Shown: piece after piece, positions 29,246 to 44,975 of the stretch | Layout: the number at the start of each line of letters is the position of its first letter | How positions within the stretch are numbered: position 1 is the first letter of the stretch | Assembly (NCBI RefSeq): GCF_013315695.1 | Contig: NZ_CP054353.1 | From: Escherichia coli | Lineage (GTDB): Bacteria > Pseudomonadota > Gammaproteobacteria > Enterobacterales > Enterobacteriaceae | DNA length: 64,000 nt | Reading direction: 5' to 3' (one strand) | The notes under the pieces: generated by a model | The model's input: only the letters and a program-made list of their open reading frames with translations | What the model was told of the DNA's origin: nothing | Databases searched by the model: none | Translations under genes and position numbers: made by a program

Positions 29246-29965
29246 ATGGCTACTCCACACATTAATGCAGAAATGGGCGATTTTGCTGACGTAGTTTTGA
29301 TGCCAGGTGACCCGCTGCGTGCGAAGTATATTGCTGAAACTTTCCTTGAAGATGCCCGTGAAGTGAACAACGTTCGCGGTATGCTGGGCTTCACTGGTAC
29401 TTACAAAGGCCGCAAAATTTCCGTAATGGGCCACGGTATGGGTATCCCGTCCTGCTCCATCTACACCAAAGAACTGATCACTGATTTCGGCGTGAAGAAA
29501 ATTATCCGCGTTGGTTCCTGTGGCGCTGTTCTGCCGCACGTAAAACTGCGCGACGTCGTTATCGGTATGGGTGCCTGCACCGATTCCAAAGTTAACCGCA
29601 TCCGTTTTAAAGACCATGACTTTGCCGCTATCGCTGACTTCGACATGGTGCGTAACGCGGTAGACGCGGCAAAAGCACTGGGCGTTGATGCTCGTGTTGG
29701 TAACCTGTTCTCCGCTGACCTGTTCTACTCTCCGGACGGCGAAATGTTCGACGTGATGGAAAAATACGGCATCCTCGGCGTGGAAATGGAAGCGGCTGGT
29801 ATCTACGGCGTCGCTGCAGAATTTGGCGCGAAAGCCCTGACCATCTGCACCGTGTCTGACCACATCCGCACTCACGAGCAGACCACTGCCGCTGAGCGTC
29901 AGACCACCTTCAACGACATGATCAAAATCGCGCTGGAATCCGTTCTGCTGGGCGATAAAGAGTAA
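29246..29965 (+). CDS. deoD: Purine nucleoside phosphorylase
   Basis: 239-aa from ATG 29246 ([26 protein letters not shown]). Confidence 0.95.
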
Positions 29966-29997
29966 TTGTGTTTTGCTGAAAGGCGATTGTCGTGTGA

Positions 29998-30027
29998 AGC
30001 CGGAGTGGGAGACTGCTCCGGCTTTTT
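29998..30027 (+). terminator. Intrinsic terminator of the deo operon
   Basis: agccggag...ctccggct stem followed by ttttt. Confidence 0.75.
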
Positions 30028-30095
30028 ATTATCTATTCATTTCTCTCTCCAGCTTGAATATTTTCGCTATACTTTTCAGTGAAATGTGTTAATAA

Positions 30096-30131
30096 ATCTA
30101 TTCAAGTATCTATTCACGAATCTATTCATTA
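30096..30131. repeat. Three tandem 12-bp direct repeats (atctattca+NNN) abutting the yjjJ start codon
   Basis: atctattcaagt / atctattcacga / atctattcatta read directly; a fourth copy of atctattca at 30031-30039. Confidence 0.8.
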
Positions 30132-31463
30132 ATGAGCGAATTGACCGATCTTTTATTGCAAGGGCCGCGTTCTGCCCCGGAATTGCGCCAGCGTCTGGCA
30201 ATCAGTCAGGCGACGTTCTCACGCCTTGTTGCCAGAGAAGATCGGGTGATTCGCTTTGGTAAAGCACGGGCAACGCGATATGCACTGCTGCGTCCTTATC
30301 GCGGAATTGAGCGTATTCCCGTATGGCGAGTGGATGATGCCGGAAAGGCGCATAAATTCGCCGACATTCAGTTGTGCTGGCCGCAGGGAAGTTGTCTGGT
30401 AACAGGCGCAGATGGCGACGAACGGTGGTTTGATGGTTTGCCCTGGTATTTGACCGATCTGCGACCGCAGGGGTTTTTGGGGCGCGCGTGGGGCAGGAAG
30501 TTAGCCGCGCAACTGAATCTTACTGAAGATATCCGTCTCTGGCAGGAAGAAGATGTGCTCTACGCCCTGACCGTATTTAGCGGTGAATACACCGGCGGCT
30601 GGCTGGTCGGGGAGGGGAATTATCAGCGATGGATTACTGCACAACGCCCTGCGGCAATTCCTCTGGATCAAAAACTCACCCATTACGAACAACTGGCAAG
30701 CGATGCACTGGCAGGAGAAATTGTGGGTTCTTCTGCGGGCGGTGAGCAGCCAAAATTTACCTGCTATGCACAAACGCCGTCAGGCAATAAACATGTGCTG
30801 GTTAAATTCACCGTGCCACAGCAAACCGCGGTCAGCCAACGTTGGGGCGACTTGCTTATTGCGGAATCTATTGCCGCGCAAATCCTGCGCGACGGCGGGA
30901 TCCACGCCATCGAGTCAACGGTGCTTGTAACAAGTAACAGGCAGGTATTCCTTGAAGCGGAACGATTTGACTGCAAAGGTAACGATGGTCGCTTGCCCAT
31001 TGTGTCGCTGGAGGCGGTGCAGAGTGAGTTTATCTCTTCTCCGGGATCGTGGCCGGAGGCTATGCGCCGTTTGTGTGAGCAACAACTTGTCACTCACCAG
31101 AGCGTGGCGCAAACAGAAGTGATCTGGGCGTTTGGGCGACTTATCGCCAACAGCGATATGCACGCAGGCAATTTATCATTTTATTTATCTGAACCACCAT
31201 TTGCGCTGACGCCCGTCTACGACATGCTGCCGATGGCCTATGCACCAAACAGCGCCGGAATGTTGCGTGATGCTGCCATTGAGGTGAGGTTTGATCTTAA
31301 CGTCAGTAAAAGTGCATGGTTAACGGCGATCCCGCTGGCGCAGCAGTTCTGGCAAACGGTCGCCGGAGATCCGCGTATCAGCGAGGCATTTCGCCACATT
31401 GCACAAGAAATGCCGGAAAAAATCCGGCAAATCGAAGGGAAAGTTGCCCGCATGGGCGGGTAA
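30132..31463 (+). CDS. yjjJ: HipA-like Ser/Thr kinase with N-terminal HTH (toxin-like)
   Basis: 443-aa ORF; N-terminal HTH-like segment and C-terminal HipA-like catalytic region (IANSDMHAGNLSF). Confidence 0.8.
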   Translation: MSELTDLLLQGPRSAPELRQRLAISQATFSRLVAREDRVIRFGKARATRYALLRPYRGIERIPVWRVDDAGKAHKFADIQLCWPQGSCLVTGADGDERWFDGLPWYLTDLRPQGFLGRAWGRKLAAQLNLTEDIRLWQEEDVLYALTVFSGEYTGGWLVGEGNYQRWITAQRPAAIPLDQKLTHYEQLASDALAGEIVGSSAGGEQPKFTCYAQTPSGNKHVLVKFTVPQQTAVSQRWGDLLIAESIAAQILRDGGIHAIESTVLVTSNRQVFLEAERFDCKGNDGRLPIVSLEAVQSEFISSPGSWPEAMRRLCEQQLVTHQSVAQTEVIWAFGRLIANSDMHAGNLSFYLSEPPFALTPVYDMLPMAYAPNSAGMLRDAAIEVRFDLNVSKSAWLTAIPLAQQFWQTVAGDPRISEAFRHIAQEMPEKIRQIEGKVARMGG

Positions 31464-32480
31464 CTATCGCACCGCCCCCGCTATCCATGCCGACAACTCC
31501 CGTAGCTCTTTTTCCTGTTCCGGGAAGTCAACCAGCAGCGCTTCGCACTCCTGTTGCAGCATATCCGCGCGGTACAGACAGCCTTGCAGTCGCCCGGCGA
31601 GGGCTTCCAGCGGCGCGGGGTTGAGACTGTCGGTAAACACCTGGGCGCGGGTGATATGGCCTTTTTCAACGTCGAAATGCAGTTCCACGCCGCCCCAGGT
31701 AAAGCGTTCATCCAGCAGATGCGAGAATGCCGGAGCCTGACCGAAGTTCCATTCCCAGCTACTCTGGCGGGCAAAGGTTTCGGCGAAGTTTGGCAAGTCT
31801 GGCGTTTTGTCCGGGGAGATGATTTCCGCTTCCACGCGCTCGCCATAATGGGCGAAAAAGGCCTCGGTTATGGCCTCGCAAACCTGCTCATGGGTGATCC
31901 CCGGTAGCAATTCGGTCAGATTGGTCACGCGGGAACGCACTGAGGTAATGCCTTTCGCCGCCAGTTTCTTTTTATCCGGATTGAGATAGTTTGCCAGGCG
32001 GCTAAGGTCGGAATTGAGCAGCAAAGTGCCGTGGTGGAAGCCACGATCTTTGGTTTCGCGATAGGCCGAGCCTGAGACTTTGCGATCGCCTTCGGCGGTT
32101 TTCACCACCAGATCGTTACGCCCGGAAGCTTCGGCGCTGACGCCGAGCGCGTTCAGCGCATTGAGCACAATCGACGTGGAGATGGTTTTATCGTACTCCG
32201 GCTTGCCAGCCATAAAGGTAAAACAGGTATTGCCGAGATCGTGGAACACTGCGCCGCCACCGCTACTGCGCCGCGCCAGGCGGACGTTATCTTCTTCCAT
32301 CCGCCGGGTATTACACTCTTTCCACGGGTTCTGCGCGCGACCAATCACTACCGTGTCGGCATTGCGCCAGAGAAACAGAACGCGCTGCGTAGCCGGCATC
32401 TGGCGAAAAATACACTCCTCTACCGCCAGGTTAAACCACGGGTCGTAAGAGTCAGAGATGAGCAGGCGTAATGTGGACAT
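31464..32480 (-). CDS. lplA: Lipoate-protein ligase A
   Basis: 338-aa [25 protein letters not shown]...; stop codon abuts yjjJ stop. Confidence 0.95.
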
Positions 32481-32507
32481 AACGATTTCCTTTCTTGTAG
32501 TAATGGG

Positions 32508-33152
32508 TCACTCTTTTTTCTCGCTTTCTTCCTCTTCCGGCACCGGTTTACTGGCGGTTAACAGGAAGGGCGATTGCTGCCAGCGGGTGCGTTTACCCTG
32601 TAGCAGCGTGCGGGTCAGCACTACGCCGATTGCCAGCGAGAGCAGCAACATCAGGCGTAAAATGTTAGTGGTGTTATCCACCTGTTGGGCTTCGGTGGCG
32701 AGCGTATGGGTGTCGAGCGTCAGGCGCAGATAGCCGAGCGGTCCGTTTTTACCCGCAATGGGTTCGACAATCTGCTGGTTAAAATAGCCGCCCGCTTTTT
32801 TGCCGTCGAGCGCCAGCCGGTCGCGCACGTCGACGCTTTCGCCAGAACGGGCGATAAGATCGCCTTGCTCATCATATACGCCTGCGTCGAGAATGCGGCT
32901 TTCATCCGTTAACTGATCGAGGATCGCCTGAATGCGTTTTTCATCCGGTGAGTCGGTACGCATCAGCGGTGCAACGTTTAGCGTCACCTGCCGCGCCAGG
33001 GTGCGGGCCAGTTCTTCCAGTTGCGGATTACGCTGTCGCTGGTGGTTTTGACTAAACCATGACGCCCCCTGCATCAGCGCCACTAACAAGGCAAGACAGA
33101 ACAGGACAATCACTGCCCGATGCAGCCGGAATTTCAGTTTTGTGCGAGCCAT
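32508..33152 (-). CDS. ytjB: Inner-membrane protein YtjB (Smp)
   Basis: 214-aa ORF with N-terminal TM helix; divergent from serB. Confidence 0.8.
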   Translation of the reverse strand: MARTKLKFRLHRAVIVLFCLALLVALMQGASWFSQNHQRQRNPQLEELARTLARQVTLNVAPLMRTDSPDEKRIQAILDQLTDESRILDAGVYDEQGDLIARSGESVDVRDRLALDGKKAGGYFNQQIVEPIAGKNGPLGYLRLTLDTHTLATEAQQVDNTTNILRLMLLLSLAIGVVLTRTLLQGKRTRWQQSPFLLTASKPVPEEEESEKKE

Positions 33153-33257
33153 CTTCCACCCTTTGAAAATTTGAGACTTAATGTTGCCAGAAGCAATGGA
33201 TACAAGGTAGCCTCATGCGTTATTTTCCCTGCTTCGAACGATTTTACAGGAGCCTTA

Positions 33258-34226
33258 ATGCCTAACATTACCTGGTGCGACCTGCCTGAAGATGTCTCTT
33301 TATGGCCTGGTCTGCCTCTTTCATTAAGTGGTGATGAAGTGATGCCACTGGATTACCACGCAGGTCGTAGCGGCTGGCTGCTGTATGGTCGTGGGCTGGA
33401 TAAACAACGTCTGACCCAATACCAGAGCAAACTGGGCGCGGCTATGGTGATTGTTGCCGCCTGGTGCGTGGAAGATTATCAGGTGATTCGTCTGGCAGGT
33501 TCACTCACTGCGCGGGCTACGCGCCTGGCCCATGAAGCGCAACTGGATGTCGCGCCGCTGGGGAAAATCCCACACCTGCGCACGCCGGGGTTGCTGGTGA
33601 TGGACATGGATTCCACCGCCATCCAGATTGAATGTATTGATGAAATTGCCAAACTGGCCGGAACGGGCGAGAGGGTGGCGGAGGTAACCGAACGGGCGAT
33701 GCGCGGCGAACTCGATTTTACCGCCAGCCTGCGCAGCCGCGTGGCGACGCTGAAAGGCGCTGACGCCAATATTCTGCAACAGGTGCGTGAAAATCTGCCG
33801 CTGATGCCAGGCTTAACGCAGCTGGTACTCAAGCTGGAAACGCTGGGCTGGAAAGTGGCGATTGCCTCCGGCGGCTTTACTTTCTTTGCTGAATACCTGC
33901 GCGACAAGCTGCGCCTGACAGCCGTGGTAGCCAATGAACTGGAGATCATGGACGGTAAATTTACCGGCAATGTGATCGGCGACATCGTTGACGCGCAATA
34001 TAAAGCGAAAACCCTGACCCGCCTCGCGCAGGAGTATGAAATCCCGCTGGCGCAGACCGTGGCGATTGGCGATGGAGCCAATGACCTGCCGATGATCAAA
34101 GCGGCAGGGCTGGGGATTGCCTACCATGCCAAGCCAAAAGTGAATGAAAAGACGGAAGTCACCATCCGTCACGCTGACCTGATGGGGGTATTCTGCATCC
34201 TCTCTGGCAGCCTGAATCAGAAGTAA
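33258..34226 (+). CDS. serB: Phosphoserine phosphatase
   Basis: 322-aa from ATG 33258 after aggag; HAD motif DMDST. Confidence 0.95.
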   Translation: MPNITWCDLPEDVSLWPGLPLSLSGDEVMPLDYHAGRSGWLLYGRGLDKQRLTQYQSKLGAAMVIVAAWCVEDYQVIRLAGSLTARATRLAHEAQLDVAPLGKIPHLRTPGLLVMDMDSTAIQIECIDEIAKLAGTGERVAEVTERAMRGELDFTASLRSRVATLKGADANILQQVRENLPLMPGLTQLVLKLETLGWKVAIASGGFTFFAEYLRDKLRLTAVVANELEIMDGKFTGNVIGDIVDAQYKAKTLTRLAQEYEIPLAQTVAIGDGANDLPMIKAAGLGIAYHAKPKVNEKTEVTIRHADLMGVFCILSGSLNQK

Positions 34227-34274
34227 TTGTCCGCCCGTCATCCTGCGGGCGGCACAGCATTAACGAGGTACATC

Positions 34275-35657
34275 GTGGCAAAAGCTCCAAAACGCGCCTT
34301 TGTTTGTAATGAATGCGGGGCCGATTATCCGCGCTGGCAGGGGCAGTGCAGTGCCTGTCATGCCTGGAACACCATCACCGAGGTGCGTCTTGCAGCGTCG
34401 CCAACGGTGGCGCGTAACGAGCGTCTCAGCGGCTATGCCGGTAGCGCCGGAGTGGCAAAAGTCCAGAAACTTTCCGACATCAGCCTTGAAGAGCTGCCGC
34501 GTTTTTCCACCGGATTTAAAGAGTTCGACCGCGTATTAGGCGGCGGCGTGGTGCCGGGAAGCGCCATTCTGATTGGCGGTAACCCTGGTGCGGGGAAATC
34601 CACGCTGTTGCTGCAAACGCTGTGCAAACTGGCGCAGCAGATGAAAACGCTGTATGTCACCGGCGAAGAGTCGCTGCAACAGGTGGCAATGCGCGCTCAT
34701 CGCCTTGGCCTGCCGACTGACAATCTTAATATGCTGTCGGAAACCAGCATCGAGCAGATCTGCCTGATTGCCGAAGAAGAGCAACCGAAGCTGATGGTAA
34801 TTGACTCCATCCAGGTGATGCATATGGCGGATGTACAATCATCGCCTGGCAGCGTGGCACAGGTGCGTGAAACGGCGGCTTATCTGACGCGCTTCGCCAA
34901 AACGCGCGGTGTGGCGATTGTCATGGTCGGGCACGTAACCAAAGATGGCTCGCTGGCTGGCCCTAAAGTGCTGGAACACTGTATCGACTGTTCGGTGCTT
35001 TTGGATGGTGATGCCGACTCACGTTTTCGCACCTTACGCAGCCATAAAAACCGCTTCGGCGCGGTGAATGAGCTGGGTGTCTTCGCAATGACCGAGCAGG
35101 GGCTGCGTGAAGTCAGCAACCCTTCGGCAATTTTCTTAAGTCGCGGCGATGAAGTGACCTCCGGTAGCTCAGTGATGGTAGTGTGGGAAGGAACGCGTCC
35201 GCTGCTGGTGGAGATTCAGGCGCTCGTCGATCACTCGATGATGGCGAATCCACGCCGCGTGGCAGTCGGGCTGGAGCAAAACCGTCTGGCAATCCTGCTG
35301 GCGGTGCTTCACCGTCACGGTGGTCTACAAATGGCCGATCAGGATGTGTTTGTTAACGTGGTCGGTGGCGTGAAGGTGACGGAAACCAGTGCCGATTTAG
35401 CGTTACTGCTGGCGATGGTTTCCAGCCTGCGTGACAGACCGCTACCGCAGGATCTGGTGGTGTTTGGTGAAGTCGGGCTGGCAGGGGAGATCCGCCCGGT
35501 GCCCAGCGGCCAGGAACGAATCTCAGAAGCGGCGAAACACGGTTTTCGCCGGGCAATTGTTCCGGCAGCTAACGTGCCGAAAAAAGCGCCGGAAGGGATG
35601 CAGATTTTTGGCGTTAAAAAACTCTCCGACGCGCTTAGCGTGTTCGACGACTTATAA
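34275..35657 (+). CDS. radA: DNA repair protein RadA/Sms
   Basis: 460-aa from GTG 34275; C4 zinc finger CNECGADYPRWQGQCSAC, Walker A GGNPGAGKST, Lon-like C-terminus. Confidence 0.9.
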   Translation: MAKAPKRAFVCNECGADYPRWQGQCSACHAWNTITEVRLAASPTVARNERLSGYAGSAGVAKVQKLSDISLEELPRFSTGFKEFDRVLGGGVVPGSAILIGGNPGAGKSTLLLQTLCKLAQQMKTLYVTGEESLQQVAMRAHRLGLPTDNLNMLSETSIEQICLIAEEEQPKLMVIDSIQVMHMADVQSSPGSVAQVRETAAYLTRFAKTRGVAIVMVGHVTKDGSLAGPKVLEHCIDCSVLLDGDADSRFRTLRSHKNRFGAVNELGVFAMTEQGLREVSNPSAIFLSRGDEVTSGSSVMVVWEGTRPLLVEIQALVDHSMMANPRRVAVGLEQNRLAILLAVLHRHGGLQMADQDVFVNVVGGVKVTETSADLALLLAMVSSLRDRPLPQDLVVFGEVGLAGEIRPVPSGQERISEAAKHGFRRAIVPAANVPKKAPEGMQIFGVKKLSDALSVFDDL

Positions 35658-35677
35658 TGAGAGATACGGAGGGAGAT

Positions 35678-36910
35678 ATGTCGTCATTTGATTACCTGAA
35701 AACTGCCATCAAGCAACAGGGCTGCACGCTACAGCAGGTAGCTGATGCCAGCGGTATGACCAAAGGGTATTTAAGCCAGTTACTGAATGCCAAAATTAAA
35801 AGCCCCAGCGCACAAAAGCTGGAGGCATTGCACCGTTATTTGGGACTTGAATTTCCCCGGCAGAAGAAAACGATCGGTGTCGTATTCGGTAAGTTTTACC
35901 CGCTGCATACTGGACATATCTACCTTATCCAGCGCGCCTGTAGCCAGGTTGACGAGCTGCATATCATTATGGGTTTTGACGATACCCGTGACCGCGCGTT
36001 GTTCGAAGACAGTGCCATGTCGCAGCAGCCGACCGTGCCGGATCGTCTGCGCTGGTTATTGCAAACTTTTAAATATCAGAAAAATATTCGCATTCATGCT
36101 TTCAACGAAGAGGGCATGGAGCCGTATCCGCACGGCTGGGATGTGTGGAGCAACGGTATCAAAAAGTTTATGGCTGAAAAAGGGATCCAGCCGGATCTGA
36201 TCTACACCTCGGAAGAAGCCGATGCGCCACAGTATATGGAACATCTGGGGATCGAGACGGTGCTGGTCGATCCGAAACGTACCTTTATGAGTATCAGCGG
36301 TGCGCAGATCCGCGAAAACCCGTTCCGCTACTGGGAATATATTCCTACCGAAGTGAAGCCGTTTTTTGTGCGTACCGTGGCGATCCTTGGCGGCGAGTCG
36401 AGCGGTAAATCCACCCTGGTAAACAAACTTGCCAATATCTTCAACACCACCAGTGCGTGGGAATATGGCCGCGATTATGTCTTTTCACACCTCGGTGGTG
36501 ATGAGATCGCATTGCAGTATTCCGACTACGATAAAATCGCGTTGGGCCACGCACAATACATTGATTTTGCAGTGAAATATGCCAATAAAGTGGCGTTTAT
36601 TGACACCGATTTTGTCACTACCCAGGCGTTCTGCAAAAAGTACGAAGGGCGTGAGCATCCGTTCGTGCAGGCGCTGATTGATGAATACCGTTTTGATCTG
36701 GTGATCCTGCTGGAGAACAACACGCCGTGGGTGGCGGATGGTTTACGCAGCCTCGGCAGTTCGGTGGATCGCAAAGAGTTCCAGAACTTGCTGGTGGAGA
36801 TGCTGGAAGAGAACAATATCGAATTTGTGCGGGTTGAAGAGGACGATTATGACAGCCGTTTCCTGCGCTGCGTGGAGCTGGTGCGGGAGATGATGGGGGA
36901 GCAAAGATAA
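35678..36910 (+). CDS. nadR: Trifunctional NAD regulator NadR (HTH / NMN adenylyltransferase / ribosylnicotinamide kinase)
   Basis: 410-aa from ATG 35678 after ggaggg; GGESSGKST P-loop. Confidence 0.95.
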   Translation: MSSFDYLKTAIKQQGCTLQQVADASGMTKGYLSQLLNAKIKSPSAQKLEALHRYLGLEFPRQKKTIGVVFGKFYPLHTGHIYLIQRACSQVDELHIIMGFDDTRDRALFEDSAMSQQPTVPDRLRWLLQTFKYQKNIRIHAFNEEGMEPYPHGWDVWSNGIKKFMAEKGIQPDLIYTSEEADAPQYMEHLGIETVLVDPKRTFMSISGAQIRENPFRYWEYIPTEVKPFFVRTVAILGGESSGKSTLVNKLANIFNTTSAWEYGRDYVFSHLGGDEIALQYSDYDKIALGHAQYIDFAVKYANKVAFIDTDFVTTQAFCKKYEGREHPFVQALIDEYRFDLVILLENNTPWVADGLRSLGSSVDRKEFQNLLVEMLEENNIEFVRVEEDDYDSRFLRCVELVREMMGEQR

Positions 36911-36943
36911 CCGTGACGAAACGGCTCAAAGGCGAGGTATAAA

Positions 36944-37228
36944 ATGAGTTTTTTTGATGAGTTGAAAACCTCTCTGGAAGAGGCTGTCGAGATTAAACAA
37001 GGTTTAAAAGAACCTGCACGGGTGACCCGCTACGAAATTGCGGATGTTAAAGCTATTCGTGAGCAACTCAACGTTTCTCAAAGTGAGATGGCAAAAGCTC
37101 TGGGAACCAGTGTAGATACCATTAAAAGCTGGGAATCGAAGCGAAGAAATCCTACGGGATTGGCTGCAAAAGTACTTGCCACAATTAAAGAAAATCTTGC
37201 CTTTTTCCGGGAACTTGCCTCCCATTAA
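36944..37228 (+). CDS. Small XRE-family HTH protein (YiaG/COG2944-like, antitoxin-like), no adjacent toxin
   Basis: 94-aa ORF with SD gaggt 5 nt upstream; HTH signature LNVSQSEMAKALGTSVDTIKSWESKRRNP; first 60 nt about 38 percent GC versus GC-rich flanks. Confidence 0.6.
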   Translation: MSFFDELKTSLEEAVEIKQGLKEPARVTRYEIADVKAIREQLNVSQSEMAKALGTSVDTIKSWESKRRNPTGLAAKVLATIKENLAFFRELASH

Positions 37229-37241
37229 TCATTTAACTATT

Positions 37242-37274
37242 ACCGGATGCGATGCTGGCGCGCCGCACCCGGCA
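37242..37274. repeat. REP-like palindromic unit
   Basis: accggatgcgatgctggcgcgccgcacccggca between the HTH ORF and the ettA stop. Confidence 0.55.
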
Positions 37275-37283
37275 TTTTACGCA

Positions 37284-38951
37284 TTACTTCGCAATACGCT
37301 TGTACTTGATACGCTTCGGCTCCAGCGCGTCTGCGCCCAGCGTGCGTTTTTTGTACTCTTCGTACTCGGTAAAGTTACCTTCGAAGAACTCAACTTTACC
37401 TTCATCCTGGTAATCCAGGATGTGCGTGGCGATACGGTCGAGGAACCAACGGTCGTGCGAGATAACCATCGCGCAGCCCGGGAACTCCAGCAGGGCGTTT
37501 TCCAGCGCGCGCAGGGTTTCGATATCCAGGTCGTTGGTTGGTTCGTCGAGCAGCAGCATGTTGCCGCCAACTTGCAGCAGCTTCGCCAGATGCAGACGAC
37601 CGCGCTCACCGCCGGAGAGTTCGCCAACGCGTTTACCCTGATCAACCCCTTTAAAGTTAAAGCGGCCAACGTAGGCGCGGCTTGGCATCTCGGTGTTGCC
37701 GATCTTCATGATATCCAGCCCGCCGGAAACTTCTTCCCAAACGGTTTTGCTGTTATCCATTGAGTCACGGAACTGATCAACCGATGCCAGTTTCACCGTT
37801 TCACCCAAAGTGATGGTGCCGCTGTCCGGCTGTTCCTGACCAGAGATCATACGGAACAGGGTCGATTTACCCGCACCGTTCGGACCGATGATCCCGACGA
37901 TCGCCCCTTTCGGGATCGAGAAACTCAGGTCATCAATCAGCAGACGATCGCCATAGGATTTACGCAGGTTGCTGACTTCCAGCACTTTATCGCCAAGACG
38001 CGGTCCAGGTGGAATAAACAGTTCGTTGGTTTCGTTACGTTTCTGATATTCGGTGCTGTTCAGCTCTTCAAAACGCGCCAGACGTGCTTTACCTTTCGAC
38101 TGGCGGCCTTTAGTTCCCTGACGTACCCACTCCAGCTCTTTCTCAATCGACTTACGACGCGCAGCTTCTTGTGAAGCTTCCTGCGCCAGACGTTGATCTT
38201 TCTGCTCCAGCCAGGAGGAGTAGTTACCTTCCCACGGAATACCTTCACCGCGGTCCAGTTCGAGGATCCAGCCTGCAACGTTATCAAGGAAGTAACGGTC
38301 GTGGGTAATCGCCACAACGGTGCCTTCGAAGTCGTGCAGGAAGCGTTCCAGCCAGGCCACGGATTCGGCATCCAGGTGGTTGGTCGGTTCGTCGAGCAGC
38401 AGCATGTCTGGTTTTTCCAGCAGCAGGCGGCACAACGCCACGCGACGACGCTCACCACCGGAGAGGTTAGCGATTTTCGCGTCCCAGTCCGGCAGACGCA
38501 GCGCATCCGCCGCACGCTCCAGCTGAACGTTCAGGTTGTGACCGTCGTGAGCCTGAATGATCTCTTCCAGACGGCCTTGTTCAGCGGCCAGCTTGTCAAA
38601 ATCGGCATCCGGATCGGCGTACAGCGCATACACTTCATCCAGGCGTTTCAGGGCGTTAACCACTTCAGAAACCGCTTCTTCAATGGACTCACGCACGGTG
38701 TGTTCCGGGTTCAGCTGCGGTTCCTGCGGCAGATAACCAATCTTGATATCCGGTTGCGGACGCGCTTCGCCTTCGATGTCTTTATCAATGCCCGCCATAA
38801 TGCGCAGCAGGGTGGACTTACCCGCGCCGTTCAGACCCAGGACACCAATTTTTGCCCCAGGGAAGAAACTCAGAGAGATGTTTTTCAAAATATGACGTTT
38901 CGGCGGAACAACTTTGCCGACACGATGCATGGTATAAACGAATTGAGCCAC
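37284..38951 (-). CDS. ettA: Energy-dependent translational throttle ABC-F protein
   Basis: 555-aa ORF with two ABC cassettes (GLNGAGKSTL, GPNGAGKSTL). Confidence 0.95.
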   Translation of the reverse strand: MAQFVYTMHRVGKVVPPKRHILKNISLSFFPGAKIGVLGLNGAGKSTLLRIMAGIDKDIEGEARPQPDIKIGYLPQEPQLNPEHTVRESIEEAVSEVVNALKRLDEVYALYADPDADFDKLAAEQGRLEEIIQAHDGHNLNVQLERAADALRLPDWDAKIANLSGGERRRVALCRLLLEKPDMLLLDEPTNHLDAESVAWLERFLHDFEGTVVAITHDRYFLDNVAGWILELDRGEGIPWEGNYSSWLEQKDQRLAQEASQEAARRKSIEKELEWVRQGTKGRQSKGKARLARFEELNSTEYQKRNETNELFIPPGPRLGDKVLEVSNLRKSYGDRLLIDDLSFSIPKGAIVGIIGPNGAGKSTLFRMISGQEQPDSGTITLGETVKLASVDQFRDSMDNSKTVWEEVSGGLDIMKIGNTEMPSRAYVGRFNFKGVDQGKRVGELSGGERGRLHLAKLLQVGGNMLLLDEPTNDLDIETLRALENALLEFPGCAMVISHDRWFLDRIATHILDYQDEGKVEFFEGNFTEYEEYKKRTLGADALEPKRIKYKRIAK

Positions 38952-39161
38952 GTTGGACTTCGCCTCTATGTTTATCGTGATGATGAGTTTTCAAAGGCGA
39001 AGTGTAGCCTGTTTCCTTATCTAATCCCAGCCGGTCGATCACCCTCGCAGTAAAAGTAAAAAAGTGTCCGTAACGTGGCGTAAACGGCAATGACTGGTTA
39101 GCATAAATCTATTACGTGGCATGACGCTGCATTGATGTATTTACACTTAGAGGATGCGCTT

Positions 39162-41099
39162 GTGGAAAAAGCCAAACACGTTACCTGGCGGCTGTTGGCT
39201 GCCGGTGTCTGTCTGCTGACGGTCAGCAGCGTGGCGCGAGCCGACTCACTGGATGAGCAGCGTAGTCGTTACGCGCAAATCAAGCAGGCCTGGGATAATC
39301 GACAAATGGATGTGGTCGAACAAATGATGCCTGGACTGAAAGATTATCCGCTTTATCCCTACCTGGAATACCGTCAGATCACCGATGACCTGATGAATCA
39401 ACCGGCGGTGACGGTCACTAACTTTGTTCGCGCTAACCCCACGCTTCCTCCCGCTCGCACGCTGCAATCTCGTTTCGTCAATGAACTGGCGCGGCGTGAA
39501 GACTGGCGTGGCTTGTTAGCCTTTAGCCCGGAAAAACCCGGAACTACCGAAGCGCAATGTAATTACTACTATGCGAAATGGAACACCGGGCAGAGTGAAG
39601 AAGCCTGGCAAGGGGCGAAAGAGCTGTGGCTAACCGGCAAGAGCCAGCCTAACGCCTGTGACAAGTTATTTAGCGTCTGGCGTGCGTCAGGTAAACAAGA
39701 TCCGCTGGCGTATTTAGAGCGTATCCGTCTGGCGATGAAAGCGGGTAACACCGGCCTGGTAACAGTGCTGGCAGGGCAGATGCCTGCCGATTACCAGACT
39801 ATCGCTTCGGCAATCATTTCACTGGCGAACAACCCTAATACGGTACTGACCTTCGCGCGTACAACCGGCGCGACCGATTTTACCCGTCAAATGGCGGCGG
39901 TGGCGTTTGCCAGCGTGGCGCGGCAGGATGCTGAAAATGCACGGCTGATGATTCCATCGCTTGCTCAGGCACAGCAGCTTAATGAAGATCAGATTCAGGA
40001 ACTGCGCGATATCGTCGCCTGGCGTTTGATGGGCAACGATGTCACCGACGAGCAGGCGAAATGGCGCGATGACGCCATTATGCGCTCGCAATCCACCTCG
40101 TTGATTGAACGCCGAGTGCGGATGGCGCTTGGCACTGGCGATCGGCGTGGACTGAATACCTGGCTGGCGCGTTTGCCGATGGAAGCGAAAGAGAAAGATG
40201 AATGGCGTTACTGGCAGGCCGATTTATTGCTGGAACGCGGACGTGAAGCTGAAGCGAAAGAGATTCTGCATCAACTCATGCAACAGCGTGGTTTCTACCC
40301 GATGGTTGCAGCACAGCGCATCGGCGAAGAGTATGAGCTGAAGATTGATAAAGCGCCGCAGAATGTTGACAGCACCCTGACTCAGGGGCCGGAGATGGCG
40401 CGCGTGCGCGAGTTGATGTACTGGAATCTCGATAACACCGCGCGTAGCGAGTGGGCCAATCTGGTGAAGAGCAAGTCAAAAACAGAGCAGGCACAGCTGG
40501 CACGGTATGCTTTCAACAACCAATGGTGGGATCTCAGCGTTCAGGCGACGATCGCCGGGAAGCTTTGGGATCATCTGGAAGAGCGATTCCCGCTGGCCTA
40601 CAACGATCTTTTCAAACGTTACACCAGTGGGAAGGAGATCCCGCAAAGCTATGCGATGGCGATTGCCCGTCAGGAGAGTGCCTGGAATCCGAAAGTGAAA
40701 TCACCGGTAGGGGCCAGCGGCCTGATGCAGATTATGCCTGGTACCGCGACCCATACGGTGAAGATGTTCTCTATTCCCGGTTATAGCAGCCCAGGGCAAT
40801 TGCTGAATCCGGAAACGAACATCAACATTGGCACCAGTTACCTGCAATATGTTTATCAGCAGTTTGGCAATAACCGTATTTTCTCCTCAGCAGCTTATAA
40901 CGCCGGACCAGGGCGGGTGCGAACCTGGCTTGGCAACAGCGCAGGGCGTATCGACGCAGTGGCATTTGTCGAGAGTATTCCATTCTCCGAGACGCGCGGT
41001 TATGTGAAGAACGTGCTGGCTTATGACGCTTACTACCGCTATTTCATGGGGGATAAACCGACATTGATGAGCGCCACGGAATGGGGACGTCGTTACTGA
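39162..41099 (+). CDS. slt: Soluble lytic murein transglycosylase Slt70
   Basis: 645-aa from GTG 39162; signal peptide; C-terminal lysozyme-like ES..GLMQIMP motif. Confidence 0.9.
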   Translation: MEKAKHVTWRLLAAGVCLLTVSSVARADSLDEQRSRYAQIKQAWDNRQMDVVEQMMPGLKDYPLYPYLEYRQITDDLMNQPAVTVTNFVRANPTLPPARTLQSRFVNELARREDWRGLLAFSPEKPGTTEAQCNYYYAKWNTGQSEEAWQGAKELWLTGKSQPNACDKLFSVWRASGKQDPLAYLERIRLAMKAGNTGLVTVLAGQMPADYQTIASAIISLANNPNTVLTFARTTGATDFTRQMAAVAFASVARQDAENARLMIPSLAQAQQLNEDQIQELRDIVAWRLMGNDVTDEQAKWRDDAIMRSQSTSLIERRVRMALGTGDRRGLNTWLARLPMEAKEKDEWRYWQADLLLERGREAEAKEILHQLMQQRGFYPMVAAQRIGEEYELKIDKAPQNVDSTLTQGPEMARVRELMYWNLDNTARSEWANLVKSKSKTEQAQLARYAFNNQWWDLSVQATIAGKLWDHLEERFPLAYNDLFKRYTSGKEIPQSYAMAIARQESAWNPKVKSPVGASGLMQIMPGTATHTVKMFSIPGYSSPGQLLNPETNINIGTSYLQYVYQQFGNNRIFSSAAYNAGPGRVRTWLGNSAGRIDAVAFVESIPFSETRGYVKNVLAYDAYYRYFMGDKPTLMSATEWGRRY

Positions 41100-41123
41100 T
41101 CCGCACGTTTATGATATGCTATC

Positions 41124-41141
41124 GTACTCTTTAGCGAGTAC
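41124..41141. promoter_or_regulatory. TrpR operator (trpR autoregulation)
   Basis: gtactctttagcgagtac palindrome about 50 bp upstream of trpR start, matching the GTACT...AGTAC operator pattern. Confidence 0.75.
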
Positions 41142-41173
41142 AACCGGGGGAGGCATTTTGCTTCCCCCGCTAA

Positions 41174-42036
<863 letters not shown>

Positions 42037-42075
42037 TCAGAAAATTAACGTTACAGCAGTATACGGAAAAAAAGC

Positions 42076-42723
42076 ATGTTACAGGTATACCTAGTCCGCC
42101 ACGGTGAAACGCAGTGGAACGCCGAGCGACGTATTCAGGGCCAGTCTGACAGCCCGCTGACTGCCAAAGGTGAGCAACAGGCGATGCAGGTGGCGACCCG
42201 TGCCAAAGAGCTTGGCATTACGCATATCATCAGTAGCGATTTAGGACGCACCCGCCGCACGGCGGAAATCATCGCCCAGGCCTGCGGCTGCGATATTCTC
42301 CTTGATCCTCGTCTGCGTGAATTAAATATGGGTGTACTGGAAACAAGAAATATCGATTCACTCACCGAAGAAGAAGAAAACTGGCGTCGCCAGCTGGTCA
42401 ATGGCACTGTCGACGGACGTATTCCTGAAGGCGAGTCTATGCAGGAGCTCAGCGATCGTGTCAATGCGGCACTGGAATCTTGTCGGGAATTACCGCAGGG
42501 AAGCCGACCGCTGCTGGTGAGCCACGGTATTGCACTGGGATGCCTGGTGAGTACGATTCTCGGATTACCAGCATGGGCAGAGCGTCGCTTACGTCTGCGT
42601 AACTGTTCTATTTCGCGCGTGGATTATCAGGAAAGCCTGTGGCTGGCGTCTGGCTGGGTCGTTGAAACCGCAGGGGACATCTCGCATCTGGACGCCCCTG
42701 CATTAGATGAGCTGCAGCGTTAA
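42076..42723 (+). CDS. ytjC: Histidine-phosphatase family protein (GpmB-like)
   Basis: 215-aa ORF with RHGETQWN catalytic motif. Confidence 0.9.
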   Translation: MLQVYLVRHGETQWNAERRIQGQSDSPLTAKGEQQAMQVATRAKELGITHIISSDLGRTRRTAEIIAQACGCDILLDPRLRELNMGVLETRNIDSLTEEEENWRRQLVNGTVDGRIPEGESMQELSDRVNAALESCRELPQGSRPLLVSHGIALGCLVSTILGLPAWAERRLRLRNCSISRVDYQESLWLASGWVVETAGDISHLDAPALDELQR

Positions 42724-43589
42724 CGACGGATCGGAATCAGCAGTTCACAGCGTAGATTAATTGGGCGATCTCCCGCTTTGGCATCTTCTGCCGGGTAGTA
42801 TCGCTCAATATCCTGACCTTTACGGCGCGTCAGGTTGAGCATTGGCATGCACGTTCCGTATACCGTCAGGATAAACTCCTGCACGCCGGTTCCCAGACCT
42901 TCATAGGTAAACATCACATATTCGCCGCCCTGCAGCATCACCGGATGCCCCGTCAGTACATAGCCATCTGCCTGATCCTGGGCTAACGCGGTGGTATAGA
43001 ATACCTCTTGTTCGTCGTCTTTATCCTGACTCGGACGCGTTTCATTCAGGCCGTAGAGCACCGGCGGAATGGTCGGCGCGTTGCCGAGAAAATCGTGCCA
43101 GAACTGATAACGCATTTCATGGCGGAAATCAGAGATTTGCTCCAGCGAACAGGAGTAGCTCTGGGTAACACCAATCAGCGGCGTATCTTCCAGGGTGACA
43201 AATTTGTGCTCTGGCATAGTGAATTCACCCAGGCGTAGCGGCGGGCGAATACCAAAGGCGCTCCATTCAGGAGAACGGCGGTAAAGTGCAGGAGTCTGGG
43301 CAAACTGCTTCTTGAATGCGCGGGTAAATGTCTGTTGAGAGTCGAAGCGGTATTGCAGCGCGATGTCCAGAATCGGACGCGCAGTCAGGCGTAGTGCGAC
43401 CGCCGATTTCGACAAACGACGAGCACGAATATACGCGCCAATAGCATGGCCAGTGACATCTTTAAACATTCTCTGTAAGTGCCACTTGGAATAACCTGCT
43501 TTCGCCGCTACATTGTCGAGCGACAGGGGCTGATCCAGATGACCTTCCAGCCAGATTAAAAGGTCGCGAATAATGCCGGCCTGATCCAT
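42720..43589 (-). CDS. rob: AraC/XylS-family right-origin-binding protein
   Basis: 289-aa ORF with N-terminal AraC-type HTH and C-terminal GyrI-like domain. Confidence 0.9.
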   Translation of the reverse strand: MDQAGIIRDLLIWLEGHLDQPLSLDNVAAKAGYSKWHLQRMFKDVTGHAIGAYIRARRLSKSAVALRLTARPILDIALQYRFDSQQTFTRAFKKQFAQTPALYRRSPEWSAFGIRPPLRLGEFTMPEHKFVTLEDTPLIGVTQSYSCSLEQISDFRHEMRYQFWHDFLGNAPTIPPVLYGLNETRPSQDKDDEQEVFYTTALAQDQADGYVLTGHPVMLQGGEYVMFTYEGLGTGVQEFILTVYGTCMPMLNLTRRKGQDIERYYPAEDAKAGDRPINLRCELLIPIRR

Positions 43590-43799
43590 AAAATATCCTC
43601 ATCCTTTCAACAACGAGCACCTGACATCAGGTAATTGGATAATAGCATTTTTTGCTGTTTTAGCATTCAGTGTTTTTTTCTTAGTCGAGTATGTTTTAGG
43701 GCTTGACGGAAATAAAAGTATTGAGATTTTGTTCTTAATCAATATGTTATTTACCGTGACGAACTAATTGCTCGTGTAATAGATAAAAATGGTAACAAT

Positions 43800-44273
43800 A
43801 TGAAATACAAGCATTTGATCCTGTCTTTAAGCCTGATAATGCTGGGGCCATTGGCTCATGCAGAAGAGATTGGTTCGGTCGACACCGTATTTAAAATGAT
43901 CGGCCCGGATCACAAAATTGTTGTGGAAGCCTTTGATGATCCCGATGTGAAAAATGTCACCTGTTATGTGAGCCGGGCGAAAACCGGTGGTATTAAAGGG
44001 GGATTGGGTCTGGCGGAAGATACCTCCGATGCGGCCATTTCTTGTCAGCAAGTCGGGCCGATTGAACTGTCGGATCGTATTAAAAACGGCAAAGCTCAGG
44101 GCGAGGTAGTATTCAAAAAACGCACGTCCCTGGTCTTTAAGTCGTTACAGGTCGTGCGCTTTTATGATGCCAAACGCAACGCGCTCGCTTATCTGGCTTA
44201 CTCCGACAAAGTTGTAGAAGGTTCGCCGAAAAACGCGATTAGCGCGGTTCCTGTCATGCCGTGGCGGCAATAA
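43800..44273 (+). CDS. creA: Periplasmic protein CreA
   Basis: 157-aa ORF with signal peptide, first gene of creABCD. Confidence 0.85.
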
Positions 44274-44285
44274 CAGAGGCGATTT

Positions 44286-44975
44286 ATGCAACGGGAAACG
44301 GTCTGGTTAGTAGAAGACGAGCAAGGGATAGCCGATACTCTGGTCTACATGTTGCAACAGGAAGGTTTTGACGTCGAGGTCTTTGAGCGAGGCTTGCCAG
44401 TGCTGGATAAAGCTCGCCAGCAGGTTCCCGATGTCATGATTCTCGATGTTGGTTTGCCTGATATCAGCGGCTTTGAATTGTGCCGCCAGTTACTGGCGCT
44501 CCATCCGGCGTTACCTGTACTGTTCCTGACGGCCCGAAGTGAAGAGGTCGATCGCCTGCTTGGGCTGGAAATTGGCGCTGACGACTATGTGGCTAAACCG
44601 TTTTCACCCCGCGAAGTGTGCGCCAGGGTGCGCACCTTACTGCGTCGGGTGAAGAAGTTCTCGACGCCGTCTCCCGTCATCCGTATTGGTCATTTTGAAT
44701 TGAATGAACCCGCGGCGCAGATCAGCTGGTTTGACACGCCATTAACGCTGACGCGGTATGAGTTTTTATTGCTGAAGACGTTACTCAAGTCGCCAGGCCG
44801 CGTCTGGTCCCGCCAGCAACTGATGGATAGCGTGTGGGAAGATGCGCAGGACACCTACGATCGCACCGTCGATACCCACATTAAAACGCTGCGTGCCAAG
44901 CTGCGCGCCATCAACCCCGATCTTTCACCGATTAATACTCATCGCGGCATGGGATATAGCCTGAGGGGCCTGTAA
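44286..44975 (+). CDS. creB: Two-component response regulator CreB
   Basis: 229-aa OmpR-family response regulator. Confidence 0.9.
   Translation: MQRETVWLVEDEQGIADTLVYMLQQEGFDVEVFERGLPVLDKARQQVPDVMILDVGLPDISGFELCRQLLALHPALPVLFLTARSEEVDRLLGLEIGADDYVAKPFSPREVCARVRTLLRRVKKFSTPSPVIRIGHFELNEPAAQISWFDTPLTLTRYEFLLLKTLLKSPGRVWSRQQLMDSVWEDAQDTYDRTVDTHIKTLRAKLRAINPDLSPINTHRGMGYSLRGL

What the first reader, a model, noticed from the sequence alone, without database searches (positions are those of the whole stretch)
31461..31466. Tightly packed convergent gene ends (yjjJ/lplA, trpR/yjjX, ytjC/rob)
The yjjJ and lplA stop codons abut with no intergenic space; trpR and yjjX overlap by 7 bp at their 3' ends (41509-41515); ytjC and rob overlap by 4 bp (42720-42723). 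None has room for an intrinsic terminator, implying transcripts extend antisense into the neighbouring gene, a possible source of mutual antisense regulation.
Basis: seen in the sequence. Interest (0 to 1): 0.2.

Follow-up and report, generated by a model that had tools for sequence, protein, structure and literature searches.

The report
Ordinary tail-to-tail gene overlaps in E. coli
Three pairs of facing E. coli genes really do touch or overlap at their stop codons, but this is a common, already catalogued layout in which transcripts run a few hundred bases into the neighbouring gene before being stopped, mainly by the Rho factor.

Summary
yjjJ/lplA abut (31463|31464), trpR/yjjX share 7 nt (41509-41515) and gpmB(ytjC)/rob share the 4 nt TTAA (42720-42723).

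It is not unusual. K-12 has 58-75 overlapping pairs among about 704 convergent pairs, and a 4-nt stop-stop overlap is the commonest class.

The three junctions have different histories:
- gpmB/rob is in 5421 of 5426 E. coli genomes and keeps the 4-nt overlap in 43 of 49 other Enterobacteriaceae loci.
- The trpR/yjjX overlap is the REP-free allele, found in 855 of 5426 genomes. K-12 has a 146-nt REP spacer there.
- yjjJ is an accessory gene. The junction is in 1346 of 5426 genomes, and the variable segment ends at the lplA stop codon.

In K-12, published data list yjjJ-lplA and ytjC-rob as convergent "excludons". They also show Rho-dependent termination 220-424 nt inside the partner gene, and RNase III-cut double-stranded RNA at ytjC/rob.

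"No room for a terminator" is faulty reasoning, because terminators can sit inside the neighbour's coding sequence. lplA has such a candidate at 31411-31429. Mutual regulation is untested.

Verdict: real, ordinary, already known. The only new prediction is that the REP-free trpR/yjjX allele creates strain-specific transcript overlap.

The parts
30132..31463 (+). yjjJ (hipH), HipA-family kinase toxin gene. It is an accessory gene, and the variable segment spans exactly this ORF.
   Evidence: ORF; Pfam HipA_C E=1.5e-20; the junction is present in 1346 of 5426 E. coli genomes; the left breakpoint lies at the ATG.
31464..32480 (-). lplA, lipoate-protein ligase A.
   Evidence: ORF; annotation.
31461..31466 (.). 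Abutting stop codons TAA|CTA (yjjJ TAA, lplA TAG), 0 nt spacing.
   Evidence: invariant in five divergent yjjJ-positive E. coli alleles.
31442..31465 (.). Palindromic hairpin straddling the two stops (GUUGCCCGCAUGGGCGGGUAAC). It has no U-tract on either strand.
   Evidence: RNA fold of 31466->31380 on the minus strand, z=-3.6.
31402..31429 (-). Candidate intrinsic terminator for lplA embedded in the yjjJ coding sequence: UGCCGGA-UUUUU-UCCGGCA followed by UUUCUUGUG. The stem starts 35 nt after the lplA stop.
   Evidence: Terminator scan; fold; stem arms identical in MG1655 and three other alleles. No Term-seq 3' end is reported here in K-12.
31135..31135 (-). Approximate position of the published K-12 Rho termination region for the lplA transcript (MG1655 4622772, 329 nt past the stop), projected onto the window.
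   Evidence: PMC7815308 Supplementary file 2, Rho score 2.66, p=7.9e-5; coordinates. Resolution is coarse (800-nt windows).
31887..31887 (+). Approximate position of the published K-12 Rho termination region for the yjjJ transcript inside lplA (MG1655 4623524, 424 nt past the stop).
   Evidence: PMC7815308 Supplementary file 2, Rho score 3.56, p=1.8e-8.
41189..41515 (+). trpR. The protein ends ...LLKDH* here and ...LLKSD* in K-12.
41509..42024 (-). yjjX, inosine/xanthosine triphosphatase. It is 171 aa and ends ...AVYQ* here; in K-12 it is 170 aa.
41509..41515 (.). 7-nt overlap TCACTGA. This is the REP-free allele of a junction that carries a 146-nt REP/BIME spacer in K-12; inserts of about 45-156 nt relative to this allele are seen in other E. 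coli.
   Evidence: the compact allele is in 855 of 5426 genomes; it has the same register as the -10 overlap of other genera.
42076..42723 (+). gpmB (ytjC), phosphoglycerate mutase-family phosphatase.
42720..43589 (-). rob (robA), AraC-family transcription regulator.
42720..42723 (.). 4-nt stop-stop overlap TTAA.
   Evidence: contiguous in 5421 of 5426 E. coli genomes; the -4 overlap is kept in 43 of 49 other Enterobacteriaceae loci as TTAA 29, CTAG 7, TTAG 6, CTAA 1.
42670..42701 (-). Conserved stem-loop GCAGGGG...CCCCUGC in the rob 3' flank, 20-51 nt after the rob stop and inside the last codons of gpmB. It may act as a pause site or a 3'-end-protecting hairpin.
   Evidence: Fold; 44-species alignment; 89.7% of cells paired against 86.3% in shuffles, and 24 double-change cells against 9.3, each 0/500. 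This is a hint only, because the sequences are related and the region is coding.
42687..42707 (.). Site of a very abundant p19-captured 21-nt RNA duplex in K-12 (UCUGGACGCCCCUGCAUUAGA, 13,933 reads; complement 1,138 reads).
   Evidence: PMC7373196 supplementary file 7; the sequence is located.
42564..42864 (.). Projected 300-nt zone where the K-12 rob and ytjC transcripts overlap. The rob 3' end lies 156 nt past its stop and the ytjC 3' end 141 nt past its stop. A Rho termination region for rob lies at about 42500.
   Evidence: Conway operon ends as tabulated in PMC7373196 Table S1d; PMC7815308 Supplementary file 2, 4634221(-), Rho score 5.02, p=3.9e-19.

Best explanation
These are three ordinary cases of tail-to-tail gene packing. 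Their geometry comes from stop-codon complementarity and insertion/deletion history, not from a dedicated regulatory device.

gpmB/rob is an ancient TTAA-type stop-stop overlap. trpR/yjjX is the REP-free state of a junction that most E. coli have filled with REP elements. yjjJ/lplA is the edge of an accessory-gene segment that ends at the lplA stop codon.

Because there is no spacer, 3'-end formation is displaced into the neighbour's coding sequence. After the ribosome leaves at the stop codon, RNA polymerase transcribes the C-rich, G-poor antisense of the partner gene without translation. Rho loads there and terminates within about 150-450 nt. Embedded hairpins (the lplA hairpin plus U-tract, and the conserved rob-flank hairpin) and head-on polymerase collisions may contribute.

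The overlapping 3' ends can pair, and RNase III cuts the duplex. Any effect on expression is probably small.

Shown: the geometry, its population and species distribution, and the composition and hairpins of the flanks. Taken from published K-12 data: transcript overlap, Rho dependence and dsRNA. Inferred: that the same holds in this strain and for the REP-free trpR/yjjX allele.
For: Geometry.

History:
- gpmB/rob is universal in E. coli. The -4 overlap is kept in 43 of 49 other species through all four permitted tetramers.
- trpR/yjjX overlaps in 27 of 52 other species loci (-10 in 21 of them). Most of the positive spacers, 20 of the 25 up to 200 nt long across the fetched loci, carry REP-like motifs of differing type and number, which indicates independent insertions.
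- yjjJ sits in a replaceable segment bounded by its own ATG and the lplA stop.

Termination:
- Rho termination regions map inside the partner gene for yjjJ, lplA and rob transcripts in MG1655 (coordinates, method).
- No Term-seq 3' end is called at any of the junctions, as expected for diffuse Rho-dependent ends.
- All six 3' flanks have C>G (C/G 1.11-1.56 over 300 nt). Each has a 78-nt window whose C/G ratio exceeds 95.1-99.8% of the window's own background windows, within 170 nt of the stop.
- No intrinsic-terminator-like structure is seen at the mapped ends.

Overlap and dsRNA: 300-nt rob/ytjC transcript overlap and p19 dsRNA cluster; both K-12 pairs are listed as convergent excludons.

Ordinariness: 75% of convergent operons overlap; 58-75 convergent ORF overlaps exist in K-12.
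Against: All transcript-level evidence comes from K-12, not from this strain. None exists for the REP-free trpR/yjjX allele.

The Rho scores are modest (2.7-5.0), rest on low read counts, and have a resolution of about 800 nt. No Rho region is reported for ytjC into rob, trpR or yjjX.

C>G composition is typical of the antisense of any coding sequence, so it does not discriminate.

The lplA hairpin plus U-tract and the conserved rob-flank hairpin leave room for a larger intrinsic or collision-driven share than is assumed here.
Confidence: 0.8

Rival explanations
1. One reading: the tight junctions are functional convergent excludons. Transcription of one gene represses the other through transcriptional interference and RNase III cleavage of the sense/antisense duplex.
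For: yjjJ-lplA and ytjC-rob are in the MG1655 excludon list. There is abundant p19-captured dsRNA over rob and the ytjC 3' end, within a top-20 cluster. The -4 gpmB/rob arrangement is kept across the family. Published synteny of excludon pairs is higher than that of controls.
Against: No reciprocal-expression test exists for these pairs. In the same dataset, dsRNA density at convergent overlaps is on average 37.9-fold lower than at divergent ones. 75% of convergent operons overlap anyway. Conservation of -4 is explained by constraint on both protein C-termini plus stop-codon complementarity. yjjJ is absent from 75% of E. coli and the trpR/yjjX overlap from 84%, so two of the three cannot be essential circuits.
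Confidence: 0.15
2. Intrinsic terminators embedded in the partner's coding sequence do most of the work: the hairpin plus U-tract at 31402-31429 for lplA, and the conserved hairpin at 42670-42701 for rob. Read-through would then be short, about 60 nt.
For: Terminator-like site found by the scan. The fold has z=-3.6. The stem is invariant in divergent alleles. The rob-flank hairpin shows excess pairing and compensatory changes. 21 of 58 E. coli convergent overlaps have predicted embedded terminators, and 146 of 165 convergent excludons have predicted overlapping terminators.
Against: No Term-seq 3' end is called at either site in three growth conditions. Bicyclomycin-sensitive termination maps further downstream. 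The U-tracts are weak (UUUCUUGUG and GGUUUCAAC). The mapped rob end lies 156 nt past the stop, not at the hairpin. The covariation test can give false positives with related sequences (tool caveat).
Confidence: 0.25
3. Collision-driven bidirectional termination (Ju 2019 and Wang 2022 model): the hairpin that straddles the stops (31442-31465), or the one near them (42670-42701), pauses polymerases from both sides, and head-on plus trailing collisions release them.
For: Hairpins without U-tracts sit at or near the stop codons, as the model requires.
Against: The model gives sharp 3' ends at the hairpin and is Rho-independent. Here no sharp ends are reported, and Rho dependence is. Expression of these genes is low, about 30-230 reads per 800 nt, which makes collisions rare. 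I could not check whether these pairs are in the published list of 306 bidirectional terminators, because the paper is not held.
Confidence: 0.1
4. Annotation artefact: the overlaps come from wrongly called gene ends.
For: None. Gene 3' ends are fixed by the first in-frame stop codon.
Against: The stops are unambiguous in the sequence and agree with RefSeq in several strains. The reading frames are conserved up to these stops in dozens of species.
Confidence: 0.01

Closest known systems
Convergent excludons of E. coli MG1655 (ExcludonFinder catalogue, PMC12288877) and overlapping convergent operons (Conway 2014, PMC4161252)
   Same: The gene pairs yjjJ-lplA and ytjC-rob are themselves entries in the catalogue. 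For ytjC/rob, the transcript ends overlap by 300 nt, close to the genome-wide mean of 286 nt.
   Different: trpR-yjjX is not in the catalogue, because K-12 has a 146-nt REP spacer there. The window carries the REP-free overlapping allele, for which no transcript data exist. Reciprocal repression, the functional core of the excludon concept, is untested for all three pairs.
4-nt stop-stop overlaps (CTAA/TTAA/CTAG/TTAG), the modal class of convergent gene overlap (Lillo and Krakauer 2007, PMC2174442)
   Same: gpmB/rob is TTAA, and other species show the other three permitted tetramers at the same site.
   Different: trpR/yjjX (7 nt) and yjjJ/lplA (0 nt) are not in the 4-nt class. In some other genera the yjjJ/lplA and trpR/yjjX junctions are also -4.
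Rho-dependent suppression of antisense and 3'-UTR transcription (Adams 2021, PMC7815308; also Peters 2012 as cited there)
   Same: Bicyclomycin-sensitive termination regions lie antisense to lplA, yjjJ and ytjC, in C-rich, G-poor sequence.
   Different: Here the terminated RNAs are the 3' extensions of bona fide mRNAs, not transcripts from spurious antisense promoters. An antisense TSS is, however, also reported 17 nt upstream of the rob stop.
REP/BIME elements between convergent genes as bidirectional 3'-UTR elements (bioRxiv 10.64898/2026.03.23.713779)
   Same: About 30% of E. coli convergent junctions carry REPs (207 of 704). The K-12 trpR-yjjX spacer is one of them, holding three REP-like palindromic units by my reading of the spacer sequence.
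   Different: The window has the empty site. Without the REPs the two ORFs overlap, and their last codons differ from the K-12 versions.
Bidirectional or collision-driven terminators between convergent genes (Ju 2019; Wang 2022 preprint)
   Same: Convergent pairs with a hairpin at or near the junction and no canonical U-tract.
   Different: Those elements lie in intergenic spacers, give sharp Rho-independent 3' ends and were characterised on well-expressed pairs. Here there is no spacer, no sharp ends are reported, and termination is bicyclomycin-sensitive.

Membership tests
Convergent overlapping gene pair | Two protein-coding genes on opposite strands whose 3' ends share at least one base | tested here: met
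   trpR/yjjX share 7 nt and gpmB/rob share 4 nt. yjjJ/lplA abut without sharing a base, so strictly that pair is not a member.
Convergent overlapping gene pair | Both ORFs are real genes, conserved and annotated, not chance ORFs | tested here: met
   RefSeq products. Orthologues with conserved C-terminal frames are found in the fetched Enterobacteriaceae loci: both genes in 49 loci for gpmB/rob, 52 for trpR/yjjX and 9 for yjjJ/lplA. Pfam HipA_C for YjjJ.
4-nt stop-stop overlap class | Overlap tetramer is one of TTAA, CTAA, TTAG or CTAG | tested here: met
   gpmB/rob only: TTAA in the window, with all four variants across species.
Convergent excludon | Convergent orientation with overlapping transcription of the 3' ends | not testable with these tools
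   No RNA data exist for this strain. Published for K-12: yjjJ-lplA and ytjC-rob are listed, with a 300-nt overlap for ytjC/rob. Not listed for trpR-yjjX.
Convergent excludon | Sense/antisense duplex processed by RNase III | not testable with these tools
   Published p19-captured dsRNA cluster over rob and the ytjC 3' end in K-12. No junction-spanning cluster appeared among the hits retrieved for yjjJ/lplA or trpR/yjjX; the only yjjJ cluster and yjjX cluster lie elsewhere in those genes.
Convergent excludon | Mutually exclusive or reciprocal expression of the two genes | not tested
   I found no experiment or dataset for these pairs.
Bidirectional intrinsic terminator | One GC-rich hairpin between the genes, flanked by an A-tract upstream and a U-tract downstream, so that it terminates in both directions | tested here: not met
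   There is no spacer. The hairpin at 31442-31465 has no U-tract on either strand. The hairpin at 31411-31429 has a U-tract only in the lplA direction. No such site was found at the other two junctions.
Rho-dependent terminator | Untranslated C-rich, G-poor stretch of about 80 nt downstream of the stop | tested here: met
   All six flanks have one. The maximum C/G ratio in 78-nt windows is 1.75-2.73, above 95.1-99.8% of the window's background windows, within 170 nt of the stop. This feature is not specific.
Rho-dependent terminator | Read-through increases when Rho is inhibited | not testable with these tools
   Published for K-12 in three of six directions: yjjJ, lplA and rob transcripts, Rho scores 3.56, 2.66 and 5.02. 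Not reported for ytjC, trpR or yjjX.
REP/BIME-bearing convergent junction | REP palindromic units in the spacer | tested here: not met
   The window has no spacer at trpR/yjjX. K-12 has 146 nt carrying REP-like palindromic units.

The most novel reading that the evidence does not exclude
The REP-free trpR/yjjX allele carried by this window, and by about 16% of E. coli, turns a pair that is insulated in K-12 (146-nt BIME, not in the excludon list) into a strain-specific overlapping-transcript pair. trpR and yjjX mRNAs would then run antisense into each other, measurably changing TrpR or YjjX expression between natural isolates.

A second, weaker possibility concerns the stem-loop conserved across the family inside the last codons of gpmB. 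It may be a selected 3'-end element of the rob mRNA, which would make rob/gpmB an anciently maintained antisense pair.
Probability: 0.25. Interest if true: 0.35.

Novelty: already known. Interest (0 to 1): 0.12.

Why it matters
It matters little as a discovery. Tail-to-tail overlaps, transcript read-through at convergent genes, Rho clearing of the resulting antisense RNA and RNase III cutting of the duplexes are all documented genome-wide in E. coli, and two of the three pairs are already named in published lists.

The useful outcomes are two. First, a correction of reasoning: the absence of a spacer does not mean the absence of a terminator. Second, the trpR/yjjX junction is a natural REP presence/absence polymorphism (855 of 5426 genomes lack the REPs). 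It could serve as a ready-made test of whether REP elements insulate convergent genes from each other.

Tried and rejected
- **3'-end data in other papers.** Nothing usable was found. [quoted passage not shown] The TERMITe supplements do not mention these genes. Ju 2019 and Peters 2012 are not held. I therefore could not check membership in the list of 306 bidirectional terminators or in the 2012 bicyclomycin transcript list.
- **Rfam.** A scan of 29500-44500 at E<=1 gave only a chance snoRNA hit at 21 bits against a gathering score of 90, so no known RNA family lies at the junctions.
- **Structure at the mapped ends.** Folding around the mapped K-12 transcript ends and Rho regions showed no terminator-like structure; z-scores were -2.2 to +0.4.
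- **trpR 3' flank.** It forms a long hairpin (z=-3.2). It has no U-tract, and its inner stem is not kept in other genera, so I did not treat it as a terminator.
- **Annotation error.** Rejected, because stop codons are unambiguous.
- **MS 21-1 as the source strain.** It is identical over 41100-43700 but lacks yjjJ, so it is not the source of the whole window.
- **One malformed paper search**.
Full report
**What the window is.** It is an E. coli chromosome segment running from btsT/tsr through deo, yjjJ, lplA, serB, radA, nadR, ettA, slt, trpR, yjjX, gpmB, rob, cre, arcA and thr to dnaK (annotation of near-identical records).

**Check of the observation.** All three junctions are exactly as described.
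- yjjJ is 30132..31463 (+) and lplA is 31464..32480 (-). Their stops read TAA|CTA with no base between them.
- trpR is 41189..41515 (+) and yjjX ends at 41509 (-). They share TCACTGA.
- gpmB/ytjC is 42076..42723 (+) and rob is 42720..43589 (-). They share TTAA.
- RefSeq annotation gives the same ends.

**Is it more than chance?** No.
- The window has 12 convergent junctions. Nine have spacers of 34-138 nt and three have spacing of 0 or less.
- K-12 is reported to have 58 (PMC2174442) or 75 (PMC4161906) convergent ORF overlaps among about 704 convergent pairs.
- Two or three tight junctions in twelve is therefore unremarkable. My binomial estimates are P about 0.37 and 0.17.
- The 4-nt tetramers TTAA/CTAA/TTAG/CTAG are the documented modal convergent overlap, because the stop codons TAA and TAG read on opposite strands can share the dinucleotide TA.

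**gpmB/rob history.** The junction is contiguous in 5421 of 5426 complete E. coli genomes. I fetched 80 Enterobacteriaceae loci using NadR as the query. The -4 overlap is kept in 43 of the 49 loci that have both genes, as TTAA 29, CTAG 7, TTAG 6 and CTAA 1. The exceptions are 0, +3, +6 (three loci) and +54. So this arrangement is old, and the flanking bases drift within the permitted set.

**trpR/yjjX history.**
- K-12 has a 146-nt spacer made of REP-like palindromic units (three by my reading of the sequence), and different last codons in both genes.
- Other E. coli show inserts of about 45, 91-97, 150 and 156 nt relative to the window's allele.
- A 61-nt probe that can only match the compact allele hits 855 of 5426 genomes, or 15.8%.
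- In other genera the two genes overlap in 27 of 52 loci: -10 in 21, and also -4, -14 and -20.
- Of the 25 spacers up to 200 nt long across the fetched loci, 20 carry REP-like motifs of differing type, number and orientation. This points to independent REP insertions into an originally compact junction.
- The window allele is in the same register as the -10 form. It differs in trpR by CAC TGA where the others have CAG CGA TAA. The overlap seen here is therefore the REP-free state.

**yjjJ/lplA history.**
- yjjJ (hipH, HipA_C domain) is accessory. The junction is present in 1346 of 5426 genomes, K-12 included.
- In the other genomes similarity stops at the lplA stop codon. At least in strain MS 21-1, an 87-aa HTH_3 gene co-oriented with lplA sits there instead.
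- The other breakpoint is at the yjjJ ATG.
- yjjJ homologues of 54-64% identity lie convergent to lplA in 9 of 76 other loci, at -4 (three loci), +7, +7, +12, +15, +25 and +70.

**How transcription ends: the premise.** The claim that there is no room for a terminator is not sound.
- Terminators can lie inside the partner's ORF. 21 of 58 E. coli convergent overlaps have predicted embedded rho-independent terminators.
- lplA has a candidate: UGCCGGA-UUUUU-UCCGGCA plus UUUCUUGUG at 31402-31429, with the stem starting 35 nt after its stop.
- That candidate is preceded by a second hairpin that straddles the stops. Together they fold with z=-3.6.
- The terminator stem is unchanged in MG1655 and three other divergent alleles.
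- No comparable site exists near the other five gene ends.

**How transcription ends: published K-12 data.**
- Adams et al. (PMC7815308) called no Term-seq 3' end at any of these gene ends in three conditions.
- Their bicyclomycin data list Rho termination regions at these positions (gene coordinates; the method uses 800-nt windows):

| MG1655 position and strand | Location | Distance past the stop | Rho score |
|---|---|---|---|
| 4623524 (+) | antisense to lplA | 424 nt past the yjjJ stop | 3.56 |
| 4622772 (-) | antisense to yjjJ | 329 nt past the lplA stop | 2.66 |
| 4634221 (-) | antisense to ytjC | 220 nt past the rob stop | 5.02 |

- In the window, all six 3' flanks are C-rich and G-poor. 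C/G is 1.11-1.56 over 300 nt, and each flank has a 78-nt window whose C/G ratio exceeds 95.1-99.8% of the window's own background windows, within 170 nt of the stop. This is what Rho needs, though it is typical of the antisense of any gene.

**Do the transcripts overlap and pair?** In K-12, yes, for two of the pairs.
- Conway's operon ends, as tabulated by Huang et al. (PMC7373196), put the rob 3' end 156 nt past its stop and the ytjC 3' end 141 nt past its stop. That is a 300-nt overlap.
- Huang's p19 capture finds a dsRNA cluster over rob and the ytjC 3' end. One of the most abundant 21-nt duplexes maps to window 42687-42707.
- ExcludonFinder (PMC12288877) lists yjjJ-lplA and ytjC-rob among 165 convergent excludons of MG1655, but not trpR-yjjX.
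- Overlap is the rule at convergent operons: 276 of 370, mean 286 nt.
- dsRNA at convergent overlaps is on average much weaker than at divergent ones.

**A possible extra element.** A stem-loop GCAGGGG...CCCCUGC lies 20-51 nt after the rob stop, at 42670-42701 on the minus strand, inside the last codons of gpmB.
- It is kept in 44 species, with some compensatory changes at third codon positions.
- 89.7% of cells are paired against 86.3% in shuffles, and there are 24 double-change cells against 9.3, each 0/500. Slid controls reach only 38-57% paired.
- Because the sequences are related and the region is coding, I treat this as a hint only.

**Conclusion.** The idea that transcripts run antisense into the neighbour is correct and already published for two of the three pairs. 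The reasoning about terminators is wrong, because Rho, and possibly embedded hairpins, end the transcripts inside the partner gene. Regulation is unproven.

The only part not already covered in the literature I could search is the REP-free trpR/yjjX allele. It predicts strain-specific transcript overlap, and could serve as a natural test of whether REPs insulate convergent genes. No Rfam family lies at any junction.

Noticed in passing
window 30132-31463; L003 32538-32832: The segment between deoD and lplA is a replaceable cassette. 25% of E. coli carry yjjJ (1332 nt). In the rest similarity to the window stops at the lplA stop codon, and at least strain MS 21-1 carries a 31-nt spacer plus an 87-aa HTH_3 gene in the opposite orientation there. 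The two breakpoints coincide with the yjjJ ATG and the lplA stop codon, so the swap is exact to the ORF.
   Followed up: partly
window 30030-30131: There are several copies of the motif TCTATTCA (for example aaTCTATTCAagtaTCTATTCAcgaaTCTATTCAtt) between the deoD terminator and the yjjJ start. They are kept in both cassette alleles and may be an operator array.
   Followed up: no
window 41509-41515; L001 717-862; L007: The trpR-yjjX site is a hot spot for REP and IS insertion. E. coli has several insert size classes (about 45, 91-97, 150 and 156 nt relative to the window's allele). The match region in strain 1EC213 includes an IS621-family (IS110-like) transposase. Escherichia sp. MOD1-EC7003 has 1642 nt between the two genes.
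   Followed up: partly
L027 around 12541, also L031 and L039: In some Enterobacter species the REP element reaches into trpR and supplies its last codons and stop (gccggaTGAcggcttcgccttatccggcc). REP insertion therefore rewrites the C-termini of both flanking proteins.
   Followed up: partly
window about 43381 (-), near the terminator-like site 43439..43422: Published K-12 Term-seq shows a very strong 3' end inside the rob ORF, about 208 nt from its start (MG1655 4635102, score 80,405-108,834). It is not Rho-dependent (Rho score 0.65).
   Followed up: no
window about 40823 (-), inside slt: A published K-12 Rho termination region lies antisense to slt (MG1655 4632394, Rho score 2.95). This implies minus-strand transcription running through the trpR antisense, possibly yjjX read-through across the REP spacer.
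   Followed up: no
window about 42737 (-) and about 43010 (+): Published antisense transcription start sites in K-12. One is on the rob strand 17 nt upstream of the rob stop (Dornenburg, old coordinate 4632481) and would give an RNA purely antisense to gpmB. The other is on the opposite strand inside rob (Thomason, old coordinate 4632754).
   Followed up: no
window 36944-37228 (+): A 94-aa ORF annotated as a NadS family protein in strain MS 21-1 lies between nadR and ettA, convergent with ettA. No gene is annotated in the corresponding 307-nt gap of the MG1655 record.
   Followed up: no
L072 and L073: The contig titled 'Chryseobacterium sp. 18061' carries a typical Enterobacteriaceae nadR-trpR-gpmB-rob locus. 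Its trpR/yjjX junction sequence is identical, and its gpmB/rob junction nearly identical, to 'Citrobacter sp. 18056' from the same project. This is probably a mislabelled or contaminated assembly.
   Followed up: no
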